IMG/VR virus record: IMGVR_UViG_2698536301_000009
Origin: a virus
Lineage: Duplodnaviria > Heunggongvirae > Uroviricota > Caudoviricetes
Reading direction: 5' to 3' (one strand)
Length of the DNA: 8,475 nt
The notes beneath the pieces were generated by a model. That model was not told where the DNA came from and did not search any database. It saw only the letters and a program-made list of their open reading frames with translations. This document shows positions 867 through 8,278 of the stretch, one piece after another; position 1 is the first letter of the stretch; the number at the start of each line of letters is the position of its first letter. Made by a program: the position numbers and the translations under genes.

Positions 867-4549
<3,683 letters not shown>

Positions 4550-5190
4550 TCTGACAGGTGCCTCTCACTTTGGGCGTGGAGCCACGGATGGACTTTGGCC
4601 AGACCGAGCCTTCAATACGTTTGTCGCCAAGGAACGTCGGAGAGCCTTCCTGTTCAATATCCTCATCAAAGGCAGCAAGTTCATCATAACCCGCCACATC
4701 CACTGACTTTTCACGGTAGTTTTTTGCCGCTTTACCGCCCAGGCACCAGAAGCCACGACCATTGGAAAAACGCTTCATAGTGAGCGTGTTATCCCGGTGC
4801 TTTTTGCCATACCACGGAGCCAGCGCCAGCAGCGACGGAATATCGCGGATGGTCGGCTCAACGTGGGTTTTCATAAAGTTCTCGGCATCACCATCCGTCG
4901 GCAACCAGATAAGGGTGTTGCGCTGCTTATGCTCTATAAAGTAGGCATAAACACCCAGCAGCATTTTGGAATAACCGACACGGGCAGACTTCACCACATT
5001 CACCTCACGGATGTAGTCGCTGCCCATCGCATTCATGATGGCCCGCTGAAAGGGCAGTGTTTCCCAGCGCCCTTCCTGGTATGCGGATTCTTTCGGGAGA
5101 TAGTAATTAGCATCCGCCCATTCAACGGCGGTCTGTGGCTCCGGCCTGAACAGTGAGCGAAGCCCGGCGCGGACAAAATGCCGCAGCCTG

Positions 5191-5736
5191 TTAACCTGAC
5201 TGTTCGATATATTCACTCAGCAACCCCGGTATCAGTTCATCCAGCGCGGCTGCTTTGTTCATGGCTTTGATGATATCCCGTTTCAGGAAATCAACATGTC
5301 GGTTTTCCAGTTCCGGAAAACGCCGCTGCACCGACAGGGGGATCCCGTCGAGAATACTGGCAATTTCACCTGCGATCCGCGACAACACGAAAGTACAGAA
5401 TGCGGTTTCCACCACTTCAGCGGAGTCTCTGGCATTCTTCAGTTCCTGTGCGTCGGCCTGCGCACGCGTAAGTCGATGGCGTTCGTACTCAATAGTCCCT
5501 GGCTGGAGATCTGCCTCGCTGGCCTGCCGCAGTTCTTCAACCTCCCGGCGCAGCTTTTCGTTCTCAATTTCAGCATCCCTTTCGGCATACCATTTTATGA
5601 CGGCGGCAGAGTCATAAAGCACCTCATTACCCTTGCCACCGCCTCGCAGAACGGGCATTCCCTGTTCCTGCCAGTTCTGAATGGTACGGATACTCGCACC
5701 GAAAATGTCAGCCAGCTGCTTTTTGTTGACTTCCAT
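5191..5736 (-). CDS. Nu1: Terminase small subunit (lambda gpNu1)
   Basis: 181-aa ORF MEVNKKQLADIFGASIRTIQNWQEQGMPVLRGGGKGNEVLYDSAAVIKWYAERD..., matching lambda gpNu1 in length and sequence by recall, including the N-terminal winged-HTH region. Its 3' end overlaps the A start by 26 nt, as in lambda. Confidence 0.93.
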   Translation of the reverse strand: MEVNKKQLADIFGASIRTIQNWQEQGMPVLRGGGKGNEVLYDSAAVIKWYAERDAEIENEKLRREVEELRQASEADLQPGTIEYERHRLTRAQADAQELKNARDSAEVVETAFCTFVLSRIAGEIASILDGIPLSVQRRFPELENRHVDFLKRDIIKAMNKAAALDELIPGLLSEYIEQSG

Positions 5737-5757
5737 TGTTCATTCCACGGACAAAAA

Positions 5758-5875
5758 CAGAGAAAGGAAACGACAGAGGCCAAAAAGCTCGCTTTCAGCA
5801 CCTGTCGTTTCCTTTCTTTTCAGGGGGTATTTTAAATAAAAACATTAAGTTACGACGAAGAAGAACGGAAACACC
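5758..5875 (-). promoter_or_regulatory. cosB: gpNu1-binding R elements (R1 about 5761-5779, R2 about 5801-5820, R3 about 5857-5875) with an AT-rich IHF-type bend site (about 5828-5850) between R3 and R2
   Basis: gaaaggaaacgacag at 5763-5777 is a perfect 15-bp inverted repeat of ctgtcgtttcctttc at 5802-5816; a third related copy gaacggaaacacc lies in 5857-5875. The order relative to cosN and Nu1 is the lambda cosB arrangement by recall. Confidence 0.75.
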
Positions 5876-5913
5876 TTAAACCGGAAAATTTTCATAAATA
5901 GCGAAAACCCGCG

Positions 5914-5925
5914 AGGTCGCCGCCC
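5914..5925. other. cosN: the 12-nt cohesive-end sequence (aggtcgccgccc on the plus strand = reverse complement of lambda GGGCGGCGACCT)
   Basis: Exact match to the lambda cohesive end as recalled, flanked on the right by cgtaacctgtcg (lambda right-end terminus) and on the left by cccgcgaggt... (lambda left end). The sequence is continuous across cos. Confidence 0.85.
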
Positions 5926-5960
5926 CGTAACCTGTCGGATCGCCGGAAAGGACCCGCAAA

Positions 5961-5977
5961 ATGATAATAATTATCAT
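5961..5977. repeat. Short palindrome atgataa-taa-ttatcat in the cosQ-proximal region
   Basis: 7-bp perfect inverted arms with a 3-nt spacer, read directly from the sequence, about 36-52 bp from cosN on the right-end side. I could not place cosQ exactly from memory. Confidence 0.4.
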
Positions 5978-6124
5978 CTGCATGTCACAACGTGCATCTA
6001 CGCCATCAAACCACGTCAAATAATCAATTATGACGCAGGTATCATATTAATTGATCTGCATCAACTTAACGTAAAAACAACTTCAGACAATACAAATCAG
6101 CGACACTAAATACGGGACAACCTC

Positions 6125-6358
6125 ATGTCAACGAAGAACAGAACCCGCAGAACAACAATCCGCAACATCCGCTTTCCTAACCAAATGATTGAACAAATTA
6201 ACATCGCTCTTGATCAAAAAGGGTACGGGAATTTCTCAGCCTGGGTCATTGAAGCCTGCCGCCGGAGACTGTGCTCAGAAAAAAGAGTTTCTCCTGAAGC
6301 AAACAAAGAAAAGAGTGACATTACTGAATTGCTCAGAAAACAGATCAGACCAGATTGA
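6125..6358 (+). CDS. Small basic hypothetical protein, possibly a ribbon-helix-helix DNA-binding protein; cos-proximal accessory ORF
   Basis: 77-aa ORF MSTKNRTRRTTIRNIRFPNQMIEQINIALDQKGYGNFSAWVIEACRRRL... Arg/Lys-rich N-terminus, then a short strand-like IRNIRF followed by two helix-like segments, an RHH-like layout. Family membership is my inference. Weak GGGA ribosome-binding site 8 nt upstream. Local sequence is AT-rich compared with the head genes. Confidence 0.55.
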   Translation: MSTKNRTRRTTIRNIRFPNQMIEQINIALDQKGYGNFSAWVIEACRRRLCSEKRVSPEANKEKSDITELLRKQIRPD

Positions 6359-6414
6359 AGCAATTTAGATAATCGTGCAGACTACGCCCCTCATATCACA
6401 TGGAAGGTACTACA

Positions 6415-6825
6415 ATGGCTCAGGTTGCCATTTTTAAACAAATATTCGATAAAGTGCGAAATAATTTAAACTATCACTGGTTTTATTCTGAACTAAAACG
6501 TCACAATGTCTCACATTACATTTACTATTTAGCTACAGAGAATATTCATCTTGTTCTTGAAAACGATAATACGGTTTTAATAAAAGGACAGGGTAAGGTT
6601 GTAAATGTAAGATTTTCAAAAAATAAATGCCTTATAGAAGCCACCTTAAAAGGATTCAAATCAGGAGAGTTATCATTTTACGAATACAGGAAAAATCTTG
6701 CTACAGCAGGGGTTTTCAGATGGATTACAAATATCCACGAAAACAAAAGGTATTACTATACCTTTGATAATTCATTACTCTTTACTGAGAACATTCAGAA
6801 CACTACACAAATATTTCCGCACTAA
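6415..6825 (+). CDS. Hypothetical protein, possibly YbcV/DUF1398-like (the lambdoid 'putative envelope protein' family)
   Basis: Track ORF is 6400..6825 (141 aa). The second ATG at 6415 follows a GGAAGG Shine-Dalgarno-like motif (6402-6407) with 7-nt spacing and gives a 136-aa product [18 protein letters not shown]... The family assignment is from memory of similar prophage proteins and is unverified. AT-rich codon usage. Confidence 0.6.
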
Positions 6826-7081
6826 ATCATAACGTCCGGTTTCTTCCGTGCCAGAACCGGACTCGCTGGCATGATGAAATATGTGTACCCGGTAACCCCG
6901 GTGTGCATCGTTTTTGATTATTCCCGCACACTCGCGCAGAAGGAGTTCCCCGTCGGGCTACGGTCTCTGTTAATACGGGAATACGGCGACGATACAGCGC
7001 ATGATGTGTCAGGCTTGAATACCTTTATCCTTTAAAAGGGATATCAGTTAAGTTATCCCGTGTAGGGTATAAACCATTATC

Positions 7082-7108
7082 AAAGCCACTCTGTAGGAAG
7101 TGGCTTTT
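7082..7108 (+). terminator. Candidate rho-independent terminator for the plus-strand accessory ORFs
   Basis: aaagccact (7082-7090) pairs with agtggcttt (7099-7107) around an 8-nt loop ctgtagga, followed by a T; 9-bp stem with a short T tract. It sits between the convergent plus-strand ORFs and the minus-strand lysis genes. Confidence 0.35.
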
Positions 7109-7316
7109 GTAATGGCAATAAAAAGCCCCGCGAATGCGAGGCTAAATCCTGGTATTTGTAATGACTGGCTCTTATCTCAACGCAGCCCCTTACCGCGCGC
7201 AAAATGCTCAATATCAAGCATCAGCAATGAGATGTTTAATCTGGATTCACTCCAGAAGTGAGCACCACCCTGTCTACAGAGCCAGATGTGAAGGATGATG
7301 AGTAAAATTATCGCTA

Positions 7317-7784
7317 TCATCGAAGGCATTGCGTCCTGATGTATTCCTGAAGCGTTCTCAGTGCTGTTTGGTCGCGGATAATTCCGTCCCGGACACCGAG
7401 AACGTTTCGTCCAGCAACTGGAGAGAGTTCGACGGTGGCATCATTGCCCATGCCGGAGGCGCTGGAGGTTTCGGCTGAGGATGGCACAGGGCATTTTCCT
7501 TTGACGAACACCCGACCACCATTATCAAGCTTGCGCCGAAGAGCATCATTTTCAGCTTTCGCATCAGCTAACTCCTTCGTGTATTTATCATCGAGTGCAT
7601 CAGCATCACGCTGGCGCTGCTGCATGTCAGTAATGGTGGCGTTCGCCTTCTCCAGTTCACTGGCCTTGTTATCGCGCTGTTCTTTGTAGGCGATTGCATT
7701 ATCACGGTAATGATTAACAGCCCATGACAGGCAGACGATGATGCAGATAACCAGAGCGGAGATAATCGCGGTTACCCTGCTCAT
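7317..7784 (-). CDS. Rz: Spanin, inner-membrane subunit (Rz-like, i-spanin)
   Basis: Track ORF 7317..7796; the likely start is ATG at 7784 ([31 protein letters not shown]...), which overlaps the R stop (ATGA). N-terminal transmembrane segment then a coiled-coil-like charged region, related to lambda Rz by recall. Confidence 0.9.
7358..7564 (-). CDS. Rz1: Spanin, outer-membrane lipoprotein subunit (Rz1-like, o-spanin), embedded in the +1 frame of Rz
   Basis: 68-aa [24 protein letters not shown]... with a signal peptide and lipobox (VVGC) followed by a proline-rich stretch [11 protein letters not shown]. Lies wholly inside Rz in a different frame (7784-7564 = 220, not a multiple of 3), the classic Rz/Rz1 arrangement. 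Confidence 0.8.
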
Positions 7785-8278
7785 TGTTGCCCCCACAAAC
7801 AGACCTCACGCTCAATCTCACGACGAGTCATCAGGCCTTTCCATTGCTTACCGCCAGCGTATGCCCAGCGACGTAGCTGGTCACATGCGCCCTTGATATC
7901 GCCCTGGTTTATTTTGCGAAGAAGAGTAGATGTTCTGAAATTGCCTGCGCCCACGTTATAGACGAACGAGTAAAGAGCGCCGCGCGTTGTTTCCGGTATA
8001 TCGACTTTGATGTACGGGTTAATTTGTCTGGCTACCGTGGCAAGGTCTTTATTCAGGAGGGCTTTGCATTCTGCTTCGGTATACGTTTTACCGGGAATGA
8101 TGTCTTTTCCTGTATGCCCGTGACATACAGTCCATACGCCAACGATATCTTTGTATGGTATGTAGCTGACACCTTCCAGACCATCGTTACCACTTGGGCC
8201 AGTGATTAACACTGATGCTATAGCAATTGCTCCGCCACCAATAGCAGCAGCAACGGCTTTTCGTAATGATGGAGGCAT
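7781..8278 (-). CDS. R: SAR endolysin (phage 21 R-type, T4-lysozyme fold / GH24 muramidase)
   Basis: 165-aa [57 protein letters not shown]... The Gly/Ala-rich weakly hydrophobic N-terminal segment (about residues 8-27) fits a signal-anchor-release domain; E35, D44 and T50 sit in the catalytic-triad positions of R21-type lysozymes. Near-identical to phage 21 R as I recall it. Confidence 0.93.

What the first reader, a model, noticed from the sequence alone, without database searches (positions are those of the whole stretch)
6125..6358. Small RHH-like basic protein next to cos could be a DNA-binding regulator
The 77-aa product has a highly basic N-terminus (KNRTRRTTIRNIR) followed by a strand-helix-helix-like pattern, which fits ribbon-helix-helix repressors (Arc/Mnt/CopG-like) or antitoxin-like proteins. 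The nearby palindrome at 5961-5977 and the cosB repeats are possible operators, though that link is speculative. A DNA-binding protein encoded right beside cos might affect packaging or late transcription.
Basis: inference. Interest (0 to 1): 0.45.

Follow-up and report, generated by a model that had tools for sequence, protein, structure and literature searches.

The report
YnfO-family ribbon-helix-helix prophage protein
The 77-residue gene beside the cos site is real: it is the lambda-type prophage gene ynfO, present in most E. coli genomes, function untested, and it very probably encodes a small Arc/Mnt-like DNA-binding protein, while the palindrome proposed as its operator is a known binding site for the host iron regulator Fur.

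Summary
The ORF at 6125-6358 (+) is a real gene. Its first 48 codons have dN/dS of 0.03-0.09 in the ORF frame only. It is 94% identical to E. coli K-12 YnfO (Qin prophage) and belongs to Pfam DUF3950 / NCBIfam YlcI_YnfO. Phage lambda carries a 64-residue copy that RefSeq does not annotate.

A ribbon-helix-helix fold is likely, on several modest lines of evidence:
- an Arc/Mnt-like strand motif N-I-R-F-P;
- a G-x-G-N-F-S turn between the two helices;
- weak profile hits to Arc-like and HicB-like families;
- in-register hhalign matches to Arc, Mnt and NikR;

The proposed operator (5961-5977) is the Fur box shown by gel shift upstream of nohA. A perfect FNR box (6052-6065), bound by FNR in K-12, lies 66 bp upstream of the ATG and recurs upstream of two distant homologues.

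The gene lies on the strand opposite the late genes. Relatives also occur far from any cos site. Nothing here supports a packaging role. The most likely reading is a host-conditioned small repressor carried as a prophage accessory gene, with an unknown target. It is a catalogued family with untested function, so interest is modest.

The parts
6125..6358 (+). ynfO orthologue: 77-residue DUF3950 / YlcI-YnfO family protein (stop codon included)
   Evidence: ORF listing. Pfam PF13132 at 9.2e-20, NCBIfam NF041551 at 33.2 bits against a cut-off of 30, phrog_949 at 2e-31. 94% identical to K-12 YnfO b4533. dN/dS 0.03-0.09.
6125..6157 (+). Basic N-terminal arm (residues 1-11, MSTKNRTRRTT)
   Evidence: Composition. 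Conserved as a K/R/T/S-rich segment across the family. Under purifying selection. Low pLDDT in the AF2 model. Its role as a DNA-contacting arm is an inference by analogy with Arc.
6158..6274 (+). Predicted ribbon-helix-helix core (residues 12-50): strand I12-P18, helix A N19-K32, turn G33-N36, helix B F37-C50
6275..6355 (+). Variable C-terminal tail (residues 51-77)
   Evidence: DNA homology to lambda stops at window position 6287, about codon 54. The tails differ completely between YnfO, YlcI/lambda and the Stx-phage copies. AF2 predicts a low-confidence helix at 59-73.
6114..6117 (+). Shine-Dalgarno-like GGGA, 7 nt before the ATG
   Evidence: Read directly from the sequence.
6052..6065 (.). 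Perfect FNR-type box TTGATCTGCATCAA, centred 66.5 bp upstream of the ATG
   Evidence: The identical 24-mer was the FNR ChIP-chip and EMSA target at nohA/ydfO and nohB in MG1655 (PMC1802558). An FNR ChIP-seq peak is also reported there (PMC3688515). The same box sits at -63.5 and -69.5 upstream of the distant homologues P0168 and P0185.
5957..5975 (.).
   Evidence: 3 mismatches to the 19-bp Fur consensus, with 0 expected in 200 shuffles. Same position (about 230 bp upstream of the nu1 ATG) and same sequence as the site gel-shifted by Fur at nohA and predicted at nohB (PMC2189734; alignment).
5961..5988 (-). Sigma-70-like promoter pointing leftward across cos towards nu1 (-35 GTGACA, -10 TATCAT), overlapped by the Fur box
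   Evidence: Consensus scan, 10 of 12 matches. This is a prediction only; the number of such hits in the region is no higher than in shuffles.
5914..5925 (.). cosN cohesive-end sequence (reverse complement of GGGCGGCGACCT)
   Evidence: Sequence. Identical in lambda, Qin and DLP12. A cos site is annotated at the matching place in the phage DE3 record.
5761..5872 (.). cosB repeats (R-type elements), between cosN and nu1
   Evidence: Inverted and direct repeats I1, I3 and D6. Their assignment as Nu1 binding sites comes from established knowledge of lambda and was not tested here.
5191..5736 (-). nu1 (small terminase subunit), divergent from the ORF
   Evidence: ORF listing. Annotated as nu1/nohD/nohA in matching records.
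6400..6825 (+). Downstream DUF1398 gene (YdfO/YbcV orthologue), possibly co-transcribed
   Evidence: Pfam PF07166 at 3.3e-43. PDB 2HH8 YdfO at 1.4e-69. 76% identical to K-12 YdfO. 41-nt gap (6359-6399), same strand.

Best explanation
The ORF is the ynfO gene of a lambda-type prophage. It encodes a small, very basic protein whose residues 12-50 form an Arc/Mnt-type ribbon-helix-helix domain.

**Inferred mechanism.** Two chains pair their N-terminal strands (I12-P18) into an antiparallel ribbon that enters the major groove. N14 and the invariant R16 point at the bases. I15 and F17 pack against helix residues I22, I25, F37, V41, C45 and L49. The K/R-rich N-terminal arm and the N36/S38 cap of helix B contact the DNA backbone. 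Like other stand-alone proteins of this fold, it most likely acts as a transcriptional repressor.

**Expression.** The gene is a prophage accessory gene, not a late gene. It lies on the strand opposite the lysis and packaging genes. It has its own upstream region with a perfect FNR box, and a Fur box lies about 90 bp further upstream. Expression is therefore probably set by host oxygen and iron status, and it probably includes the downstream DUF1398 gene.

**What is shown.** The gene is real and conserved. It belongs to the YlcI/YnfO family. Fur and FNR bind the near-identical K-12 sequences, according to published work.

**What is inferred.** The fold, dimerisation, DNA binding and repressor role are inferences. 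The operator and the regulated genes remain unknown.
For: **Real gene.** dN/dS is 0.03-0.09 in the ORF frame only, including the N-terminal 20 codons.

**Family.** PF13132 at 9.2e-20, NF041551 above its cut-off, phrog_949. 94% identical to K-12 YnfO. A match to window 5700-7300, which includes the ORF, is found in 4907 of 5426 complete E. coli genomes. The protein's first 54 residues match 154 phage records.

**Fold.**
- The conserved pattern is K-N-I-R-F-P-x-x-L-I-E-x-I ... N-F-S-A-W-V-x-E-A-C-x-x-x-L.
- hhalign places N-I-R-F-P on Arc N-L-R-W-P and Mnt N-F-R-M-P, and aligns the whole domain to Arc (P 0.0025), NikR-N (0.0087) and Mnt (0.035). Ten non-fold controls give 0.043 or worse. The Arc and Mnt sequences were verified against PDB.
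- 8 of 19 members hit the HicB-like profile (best 8.3e-5), and others hit three Arc-like repressor profiles.
- The AF2 core is helix 19-32, turn, helix 37-54 at pLDDT 78-83.

**Domain shuffling.** The domain is fused to a TerS-type helix-turn-helix DNA-binding domain in satellite islands.

**Host regulation.** The Fur box matches the site gel-shifted at nohA. The FNR box matches the ChIP and EMSA target. The box is conserved at -63.5 to -69.5 in three divergent lineages while its central four bases vary.

**Accessory-gene position.** The gene sits on the opposite strand, between the lysis and packaging genes, in lambda-type phages and in HNH/TerS-type phages.
Against: - The AF2 monomer draws residues 8-13 as a low-confidence helix and 14-18 as coil, not as a strand. 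A dimer could not be modelled.
- No operator could be identified. The upstream region is 98% identical among the available lambda-type copies, so footprinting by comparison has no power.
- In K-12 the FNR and Fur sites were assigned to nohA, and nohA promoter fusions showed only marginal FNR dependence. Which promoter they serve is unresolved.
- The Stx-phage copies lack both boxes.
- No published experiment addresses YnfO or YlcI function.
Confidence: 0.55

Rival explanations
1. It is a guard or regulator of the packaging operon. The protein binds in the cos-proximal intergenic region and controls transcription running leftward into the terminase genes, for example to prevent terminase expression and cos cutting in a lysogen, or it otherwise modulates cos use.
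For: - The gene is divergent from the first packaging gene in two unrelated packaging modules: nu1-A in lambda-type phages, and HNH-terS-terL in Stx phages, where the two start codons are only 41 bp apart.
- Between these two contexts only the domain-coding 141 bp is shared at the DNA level; both flanks differ.
- A sigma-70-like promoter points across cos into nu1.
- In satellite islands the domain is fused to a TerS N-terminal DNA-binding domain.
Against: - The gap between lysis and packaging genes is a general site for accessory genes. bor and the DUF1398 gene lie there too, so position alone is weak evidence.
- Family members sit in chromosomal loci with no terminase nearby: next to TonB-dependent receptors, cytochrome bd oxidase genes, cdtABC, and a fimbrial/hsd island.
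- The leftward promoter is only a consensus match, and the count of such matches equals the shuffle expectation.
- The known satellite factor that redirects packaging, Rpp, has a different fold, a winged helix-turn-helix.
Confidence: 0.15
2. It is the antitoxin of a type II toxin-antitoxin pair whose toxin is the downstream DUF1398 protein.
For: - The gene order is small ribbon-helix-helix gene, then a 141-residue gene 41 nt downstream on the same strand.
- The best non-self profile hits are to a HicB-like antitoxin family.
Against: - In lambda and DLP12 an oppositely oriented gene (lambdap79/ybcW) separates the two genes.
- The Stx-phage, satellite and chromosomal copies have no DUF1398 neighbour.
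- The C-terminal tail, which would have to bind the toxin, is swapped at a mosaic junction right after residue 54.
- DUF1398 matches no model in the PADLOC anti-phage defence library, the only such library searched; no toxin-specific library was available.
- YdfO overexpression is reported to raise stress resistance, not to kill (PMC4077768).
Confidence: 0.07
3. The conserved TTGAT-N4-ATCAA palindrome is the protein's own operator and only resembles an FNR site. The gene would then be a classic autorepressor independent of host oxygen sensing.
For: - The box lies at nearly the same distance from the ATG in three divergent family members.
- nohA promoter fusions showed marginal FNR dependence, and no FNR-dependent expression change was seen in K-12.
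- Other subfamilies carry different palindromes upstream (GTGTT-N2-3-AACAC; TGGTACGTACCA twice), as expected if each protein has its own operator.
Against: - FNR binds this exact sequence in vivo and in vitro.
- The arms match the FNR consensus perfectly while the central four bases vary freely, which is the FNR signature.
- The satellite copy L003a has the same predicted base-contacting residues (N14, R16) but no such box.
Confidence: 0.1
4. It is not a DNA-binding protein. It would be a small helical adaptor or remnant peptide, and its resemblance to ribbon-helix-helix proteins would be superficial.
Against: - Several independent weak signals all point to the same fold and the same alignment register.
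- Strong purifying selection acts on exactly the residues that would form the strand and the core.
- The domain is recruited next to another DNA-binding domain.
Confidence: 0.1

Closest known systems
E. coli K-12 YnfO (b4533, Qin prophage) and YlcI (b4589, DLP12 prophage); Pfam DUF3950, NCBIfam YlcI_YnfO_N
   Same: 94% identical to YnfO over all 77 residues. The neighbours are the same: nohA/nu1 divergent on one side and ydfO/DUF1398 downstream. The cos-to-ATG intergenic region is 98% identical.
   Different: Five substitutions (T12I, E30D, S34Y, S57P, V74I). The K-12 copies sit in decayed prophages, whereas this window has nu1, W, a portal gene and lysis genes. Its terminase A gene, however, is broken by a 643-bp repeat.
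Arc and Mnt repressors of phage P22 (ribbon-helix-helix; PDB 1ARQ, 1MNT)
   Same: Small phage-encoded proteins with an N-terminal arm. The strand motif N-x-R-x-P has alternating polar and hydrophobic residues, followed by two helices joined by a Gly-containing turn. hhalign aligns the whole domain in register.
   Different: No significant sequence similarity by Pfam or PDB search. The turn is one residue longer. The genomic setting differs: the gap between lysis and cos, not the immI region. The operator and target are unknown. There is a conserved Cys in helix B.
Ribbon-helix-helix antitoxins (HicB C-terminal domain, RelB, ParD, FitA, TacA)
   Different: No conserved partner gene and no conserved tail. 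The downstream DUF1398 gene is dispensable for the arrangement and matches nothing in the PADLOC defence library.
Rpp proteins of E. coli phage-inducible chromosomal islands (redirect lambda-type TerS to the island's cos site)
   Same: Small mobile-element protein encoded close to a cos site, with proposed DNA binding near cosB (PMC6739421).
   Different: Rpp is a MerR/TerS-like winged helix-turn-helix dimer that binds TerS, so the fold is different. No evidence here shows any contact with Nu1.

Membership tests
YlcI/YnfO family (Pfam PF13132 DUF3950; NCBIfam NF041551) | Score above the curated cut-off of the family models | tested here: met
   PF13132 at 70.7 bits against a cut-off of 25. NF041551 at 33.2 bits against a cut-off of 30.
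YlcI/YnfO family (Pfam PF13132 DUF3950; NCBIfam NF041551) | Conserved N-F-S-A-W-V motif and I-R-F motif | tested here: met
   I15, R16, F37 and V41 are invariant. F17, W40, A44 and C45 are at least 90% conserved in 19 diverse members, and all are present here.
Ribbon-helix-helix superfamily (Arc/MetJ/CopG type) | Strand, helix, helix order within about 45 residues, with alternating polar and hydrophobic residues in the strand | tested here: inconclusive
Ribbon-helix-helix superfamily (Arc/MetJ/CopG type) | Gly-containing turn between the helices, with a polar N-cap (G-x-S/T/N) on helix B | tested here: met
   G33-Y-G-N36-F-S38 in this protein. N/S-F-S is conserved family-wide.
Ribbon-helix-helix superfamily (Arc/MetJ/CopG type) | Detectable sequence-profile relationship to established members | tested here: inconclusive
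   PHROG HicB-like at 8.3e-5, Arc-like at 6.8e-4, 0.022 and 0.032. hhalign P is 0.0025 for Arc, 0.0087 for NikR and 0.035 for Mnt, against 0.043 or worse for ten controls. No Pfam family of this fold appears at E up to 10, and there is no PDB hit.
Ribbon-helix-helix superfamily (Arc/MetJ/CopG type) | Obligate homodimer with an intermolecular two-stranded sheet | not testable with these tools
Ribbon-helix-helix superfamily (Arc/MetJ/CopG type) | Sequence-specific DNA binding through the sheet | not testable with these tools
   No experiment was found in the literature.
Pfam Arc family (PF03869) as such | Match to the family model | tested here: not met
   Not reported for any of 19 members, even at E up to 10. 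The gene works like Arc but is not filed as a member of that family.
Type II antitoxin | A cognate toxin gene consistently adjacent and co-oriented | tested here: not met
   The DUF1398 neighbour is split off by ybcW/lambdap79 in lambda and DLP12, and is absent in the Stx-phage, satellite and chromosomal copies.
Type II antitoxin | A conserved toxin-binding C-terminal segment | tested here: not met
   The tail is replaced after about residue 54 at a mosaic junction.
Phage packaging accessory or cos-binding factor | Co-expression with the late packaging genes and obligate linkage to a cos or terminase module | tested here: not met
   The gene lies on the strand opposite the late genes. Homologues lie in loci with no terminase. 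Adjacency to the first packaging gene does hold in two phage types, so a link is not excluded.

The most novel reading that the evidence does not exclude
The DUF3950 ribbon-helix-helix protein could be a dedicated cos-proximal regulator, kept immediately upstream of and divergent from the first packaging gene in two unrelated packaging modules. In a lysogen, under host FNR and Fur control, it would shut off stray transcription across cos into the terminase genes and so prevent lethal cos cutting of the chromosome.

A second possibility rests on my own knowledge that the right end of lambda DNA enters the cell first. The protein might then be the first one made from the injected genome. Lambda itself would carry this function in a gene that its reference annotation omits.
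Probability: 0.1. Interest if true: 0.6.

Novelty: new member of a known kind. Interest (0 to 1): 0.3.

Why it matters
The gene family sits in over 90% of sequenced E. coli genomes and in phage lambda itself. It is still listed among the uncharacterised K-12 genes, and the reference lambda record does not annotate it.

Assigning it to the ribbon-helix-helix repressors gives concrete, cheap experiments. So does noting that the Fur and FNR sites long credited to nohA/nohB lie just as well upstream of ynfO/ylcI. Together these would test whether lambdoid prophages carry a small regulator switched on in anaerobic, iron-poor conditions such as the gut.

If the outcome is ordinary, the gain is a better annotation. 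The Pfam domain boundary (residues 21-50) currently cuts off the strand that defines the fold.

Tried and rejected
- **PDB sequence searches.** A single sequence and a 19-member profile found nothing meaningful.
- **Pfam.** A scan of all 19 members at E up to 10 found no ribbon-helix-helix family.
- **Foldseek.** The AF2 model found nothing significant in PDB or BFVD. The afdb50 library was unavailable.
- **PADLOC.** The defence models gave only noise-level hits for this protein, the DUF1398 neighbour and two satellite homologues.
- **Rfam.** The scan of 5600-7400 gave nothing near threshold.
- **Rpp.** I considered it as the closest cos-linked small protein and rejected it because it is a winged helix-turn-helix. 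The Listeria TerI packaging-inhibition system is unrelated in organism and gene.
- **Comparative footprinting.** The cos-to-ATG region from the window, Qin, DLP12 and lambda is 98% identical, so the comparison has no power.
- **Shared operator motif.** Each subfamily has different upstream palindromes, so no common motif emerged.
- **Genome-collection scan.** The diverse alignment had no usable conserved stretch. A closer alignment worked, but most hits outside Enterobacterales were lambda control-DNA contamination.
- **Literature.** Searches for ynfO, ylcI, DUF3950, b4533 and b4589 found no functional study.
- **Antisense ORFs.** The antisense ORF at 6214-6363 and the overlapping +1-frame ORF at 6189-6368 are rejected as genes, because substitutions fit only the 6125 frame.

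Full report
**Setting.** The window is a lambda-type prophage segment, read in the reverse of the lambda map. On the minus strand lie the portal gene (847-2448), W (2445-2651), terminase A (2648-5216, disrupted) and nu1 (5191-5736). Next come the cosB repeats (5761-5872), the 12-nt cohesive-end sequence (5914-5925) and a cosQ-like AGGACCC (5949-5955). On the plus strand are the ORF in question (6125-6358) and a DUF1398 gene (6400-6825). Rz (7317-7796) and the lysozyme gene (7781-8278) follow on the minus strand. The same layout is annotated in phage DE3/lambda, in phage Kati, and in the K-12 cryptic prophages Qin and DLP12.

The ORF, its length and its basic N-terminus are as described: 6 K/R in the first 16 residues and a pI of 10.35. 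It is a real gene. Against the copies in Stx phage 2851 and phage 569R3, most differences fall on third codon positions. dN/dS for the first 48 codons is 0.03-0.09 in this frame and above 0.9 in the other two. Codons 1-20 alone are also constrained, so the ATG at 6125 is the true start, not the internal Met21 used in one phage annotation. The palindrome at 5961-5977 and the cosB repeats are present.

**Identity.** The product matches Pfam DUF3950 (9.2e-20), NCBIfam YlcI_YnfO_N and phrog_949, which has no assigned function. It is 94% identical to K-12 YnfO, and the downstream protein is 76% identical to YdfO, whose structure is PDB 2HH8. A match to window 5700-7300, which contains the ORF, is found in 4907 of 5426 complete E. 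coli genomes, and the protein's first 54 residues match 154 phage records. Lambda itself encodes a 64-residue copy at complement 48109..48303 that RefSeq NC_001416 and the DE3 record leave unannotated. The family is small, with 106 clusters at 50% identity. After removing lambda control-DNA contaminants, it is confined to Enterobacterales. A 2024 review still lists ynfO as uncharacterised, and I found no functional study.

**Fold.** Nineteen diverse members share K-N-I-R-F-P-x-x-L-I-E-x-I, a variable loop, and N-F-S-A-W-V-x-E-A-C-x-x-x-L. I15, R16, I25, F37 and V41 are invariant. This is the ribbon-helix-helix pattern: a strand with alternating outward and core residues, helix A, a Gly turn with a polar cap, and helix B with core residues every four positions.

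- hhalign puts N-I-R-F-P on Arc N-L-R-W-P and Mnt N-F-R-M-P. It aligns the whole domain with Arc (P 0.0025), NikR N-domain (0.0087) and Mnt (0.035). Ten small proteins of other folds score 0.043 or worse. The Arc and Mnt sequences were checked against PDB.
- Against PHROGs, 8 of 19 members hit a HicB-like antitoxin profile (best 8.3e-5), and individual members hit three Arc-like repressor profiles.
- An AF2 monomer model (mean pLDDT 68, core 78-83) gives helices at 19-32 and 37-54.

Against this, Foldseek, Pfam and PDB sequence searches find nothing. The monomer model does not draw the strand. A dimer could not be modelled. I put the fold at about 0.8. The Pfam model covers only residues 21-50 and omits the strand. 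That omission may be why the family is still filed as a domain of unknown function; this is my inference.

**The proposed operators.** The palindrome is a Fur box. It has 3 mismatches to the 19-bp consensus, with none expected by chance. It lies about 230 bp upstream of the nu1 ATG. Chen et al. gel-shifted Fur at -233 of nohA and predicted a strong site at nohB (PMC2189734). The window differs from Qin at only two bases of this 19-bp box and is identical to DLP12 there. The box overlaps the -10 of a consensus-level promoter that points leftward across cos.

A second palindrome, TTGATCTGCATCAA at 6052-6065, is a perfect FNR box. The identical 24-mer was the FNR ChIP-chip and EMSA target at nohA/ydfO and nohB (PMC1802558). 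A later ChIP-seq study placed this locus among FNR-bound sites with no FNR-dependent change in expression that are repressed by Fur (PMC3688515). Those papers credit the sites to nohA. The FNR box, however, is centred 66.5 bp upstream of the ynfO ATG. A perfect TTGAT-N4-ATCAA also sits 63.5 and 69.5 bp upstream of two distant homologues (46% and 37% identical) in unrelated chromosomal loci, and the central four bases differ in each. That conservation argues that the box serves the DUF3950 gene. Which promoter it serves was not determined.

**Context across the family.**
- *Stx phages.* In Stx phages with an HNH-terS-terL packaging module, the gene again lies between the lysis and packaging genes on the opposite strand. 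Its ATG is 41 bp from the HNH ATG. Only the domain-coding 141 bp is homologous to the window at the DNA level.
- *Mosaic junction.* Homology to lambda ends at about codon 54, so the C-terminal tails are interchangeable.
- *Satellite islands.* One copy lies divergent from the replication and packaging operon, with two TGGTACGTACCA palindromes around a TATAAT. Another copy is fused to a TerS N-terminal DNA-binding domain.
- *Chromosomal copies.* These follow TonB-dependent receptor genes near copC/copD (two lineages plus Tatumella), cytochrome bd oxidase genes (Rouxiella) and cdtABC.

The domain therefore behaves as a portable DNA-binding module and is not tied to cos. Several contexts are linked to iron or oxygen, which echoes the Fur and FNR boxes.

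**Explanations.** The best reading is a small Arc/Mnt-like repressor encoded by a prophage accessory gene and expressed from its own host-conditioned promoter, probably together with the DUF1398 gene. Its target is unknown (confidence 0.55 for the whole statement). The rivals, with evidence in the report sections, are:
- a regulator guarding transcription into the terminase genes (0.15);
- an autorepressor whose operator is the FNR-like box (0.10);
- an antitoxin to DUF1398 (0.07), contradicted by the inconsistent partner gene and the swapped tail;
- not a DNA-binding protein at all (0.10).

These alternatives are not strictly exclusive.

**Verdict.** The fold inference is supported, but the operator and packaging ideas are not. 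This is a catalogued, very common family with untested function, best described as a new member of the ribbon-helix-helix repressors. Interest is modest at 0.3. The main value is a testable assignment, a corrected reading of the nohA Fur and FNR sites, and an unannotated gene in lambda.

Noticed in passing
window 3710-5004 (minus-strand terminase A gene, ORFs 2648-4549 and 4284-5216): A 643-bp tandem repeat lies inside the large terminase gene (copies at about 3710-4361 and 4353-5004). It shifts the reading frame and splits the gene. The copies are only about 96% identical (27 mismatches). The best-matching E. coli genomes listed carry a single copy (1601 bases of query map onto 958 bases of record). 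This looks like a join of two alleles (unequal recombination or misassembly), not a clean duplication.
   Followed up: partly
window 5957-5988: The Fur box abuts the cosQ-like AGGACCC (5949-5955) and overlaps the -10 of a sigma-70-like promoter that points leftward across cosN and cosB into nu1. This would be an iron-regulated promoter reading through a phage cos site. Fur binding is published for the K-12 homologue nohA, but the purpose in a phage is unexplained.
   Followed up: partly
window 6052-6065; L010 4925-4938; L013 4931-4944; L001 1852-1865: A perfect FNR consensus TTGAT-N4-ATCAA is kept 63-70 bp upstream of the start codon of three very divergent DUF3950 genes, including the lambda copy. 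The central four bases differ in each. The published FNR ChIP and EMSA target was credited to nohA/nohB.
   Followed up: partly
L001 1926-2120 (phage DE3); NC_001416 complement 48109..48303: Phage lambda carries an intact 64-residue YlcI-type gene between cos and lambdap79. Neither the RefSeq lambda record nor the DE3 record annotates it.
   Followed up: yes
L025, L029-L061, L064, L065 (genome-contig hits); proteins P0014, P0031, P0062, P0096: Most 'homologues' in unrelated organisms (Streptomyces, Pseudomonas, Cohnella, Staphylococcus, Bacillus, a spider) sit on contigs of about 3.5 kb or 48.5 kb, or on fragments, that are 91% or more identical to lambda. Many 50%-identity clusters are frameshifted versions. 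I infer these are lambda control-DNA contaminants and error-prone reads, which inflate the apparent spread of the family.
   Followed up: partly
L003 5590-5772 and 6001-6363 (satellite island beside an integrase, inside a prophage): The island has two DUF3950 genes. The first has two perfect TGGTACGTACCA palindromes 33 bp apart, bracketing a TATAAT and reaching its ATG. The second is fused to a TerS N-terminal helix-turn-helix domain that is 64% identical to a stand-alone 61-residue ORF nearby. It is preceded by several GTTTAACAC-type repeats, which also occur upstream of its relatives in L007 and L018.
   Followed up: partly
L008 5001-5225; L010 5001-5192; L067 about 5004-5153; L062 about 5001-5180: Chromosomal family members lie just downstream of TonB-dependent receptor genes near copC/copD (Tatumella is one of these lineages). 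In Rouxiella the gene lies just downstream of cytochrome bd oxidase subunit genes. These settings are metal- and oxygen-related. Together with the near-invariant Cys45, they hint at a link to iron or redox physiology.
   Followed up: partly
window 6185-6274 (residues 21-50): The Pfam DUF3950 model is only 30 positions long and begins at helix A. It leaves out the conserved strand (residues 12-18) that defines the ribbon-helix-helix fold. The NCBIfam model starts at residue 10.
   Followed up: no
window 6400-6825: PHROGs labels the DUF1398 neighbour (YdfO/YbcV family) 'head protein', and the lambda record calls it 'putative envelope protein'. Neither label fits a gene transcribed against the late operon. 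Published data show only stress-inducible expression and PdhR sites.
   Followed up: no
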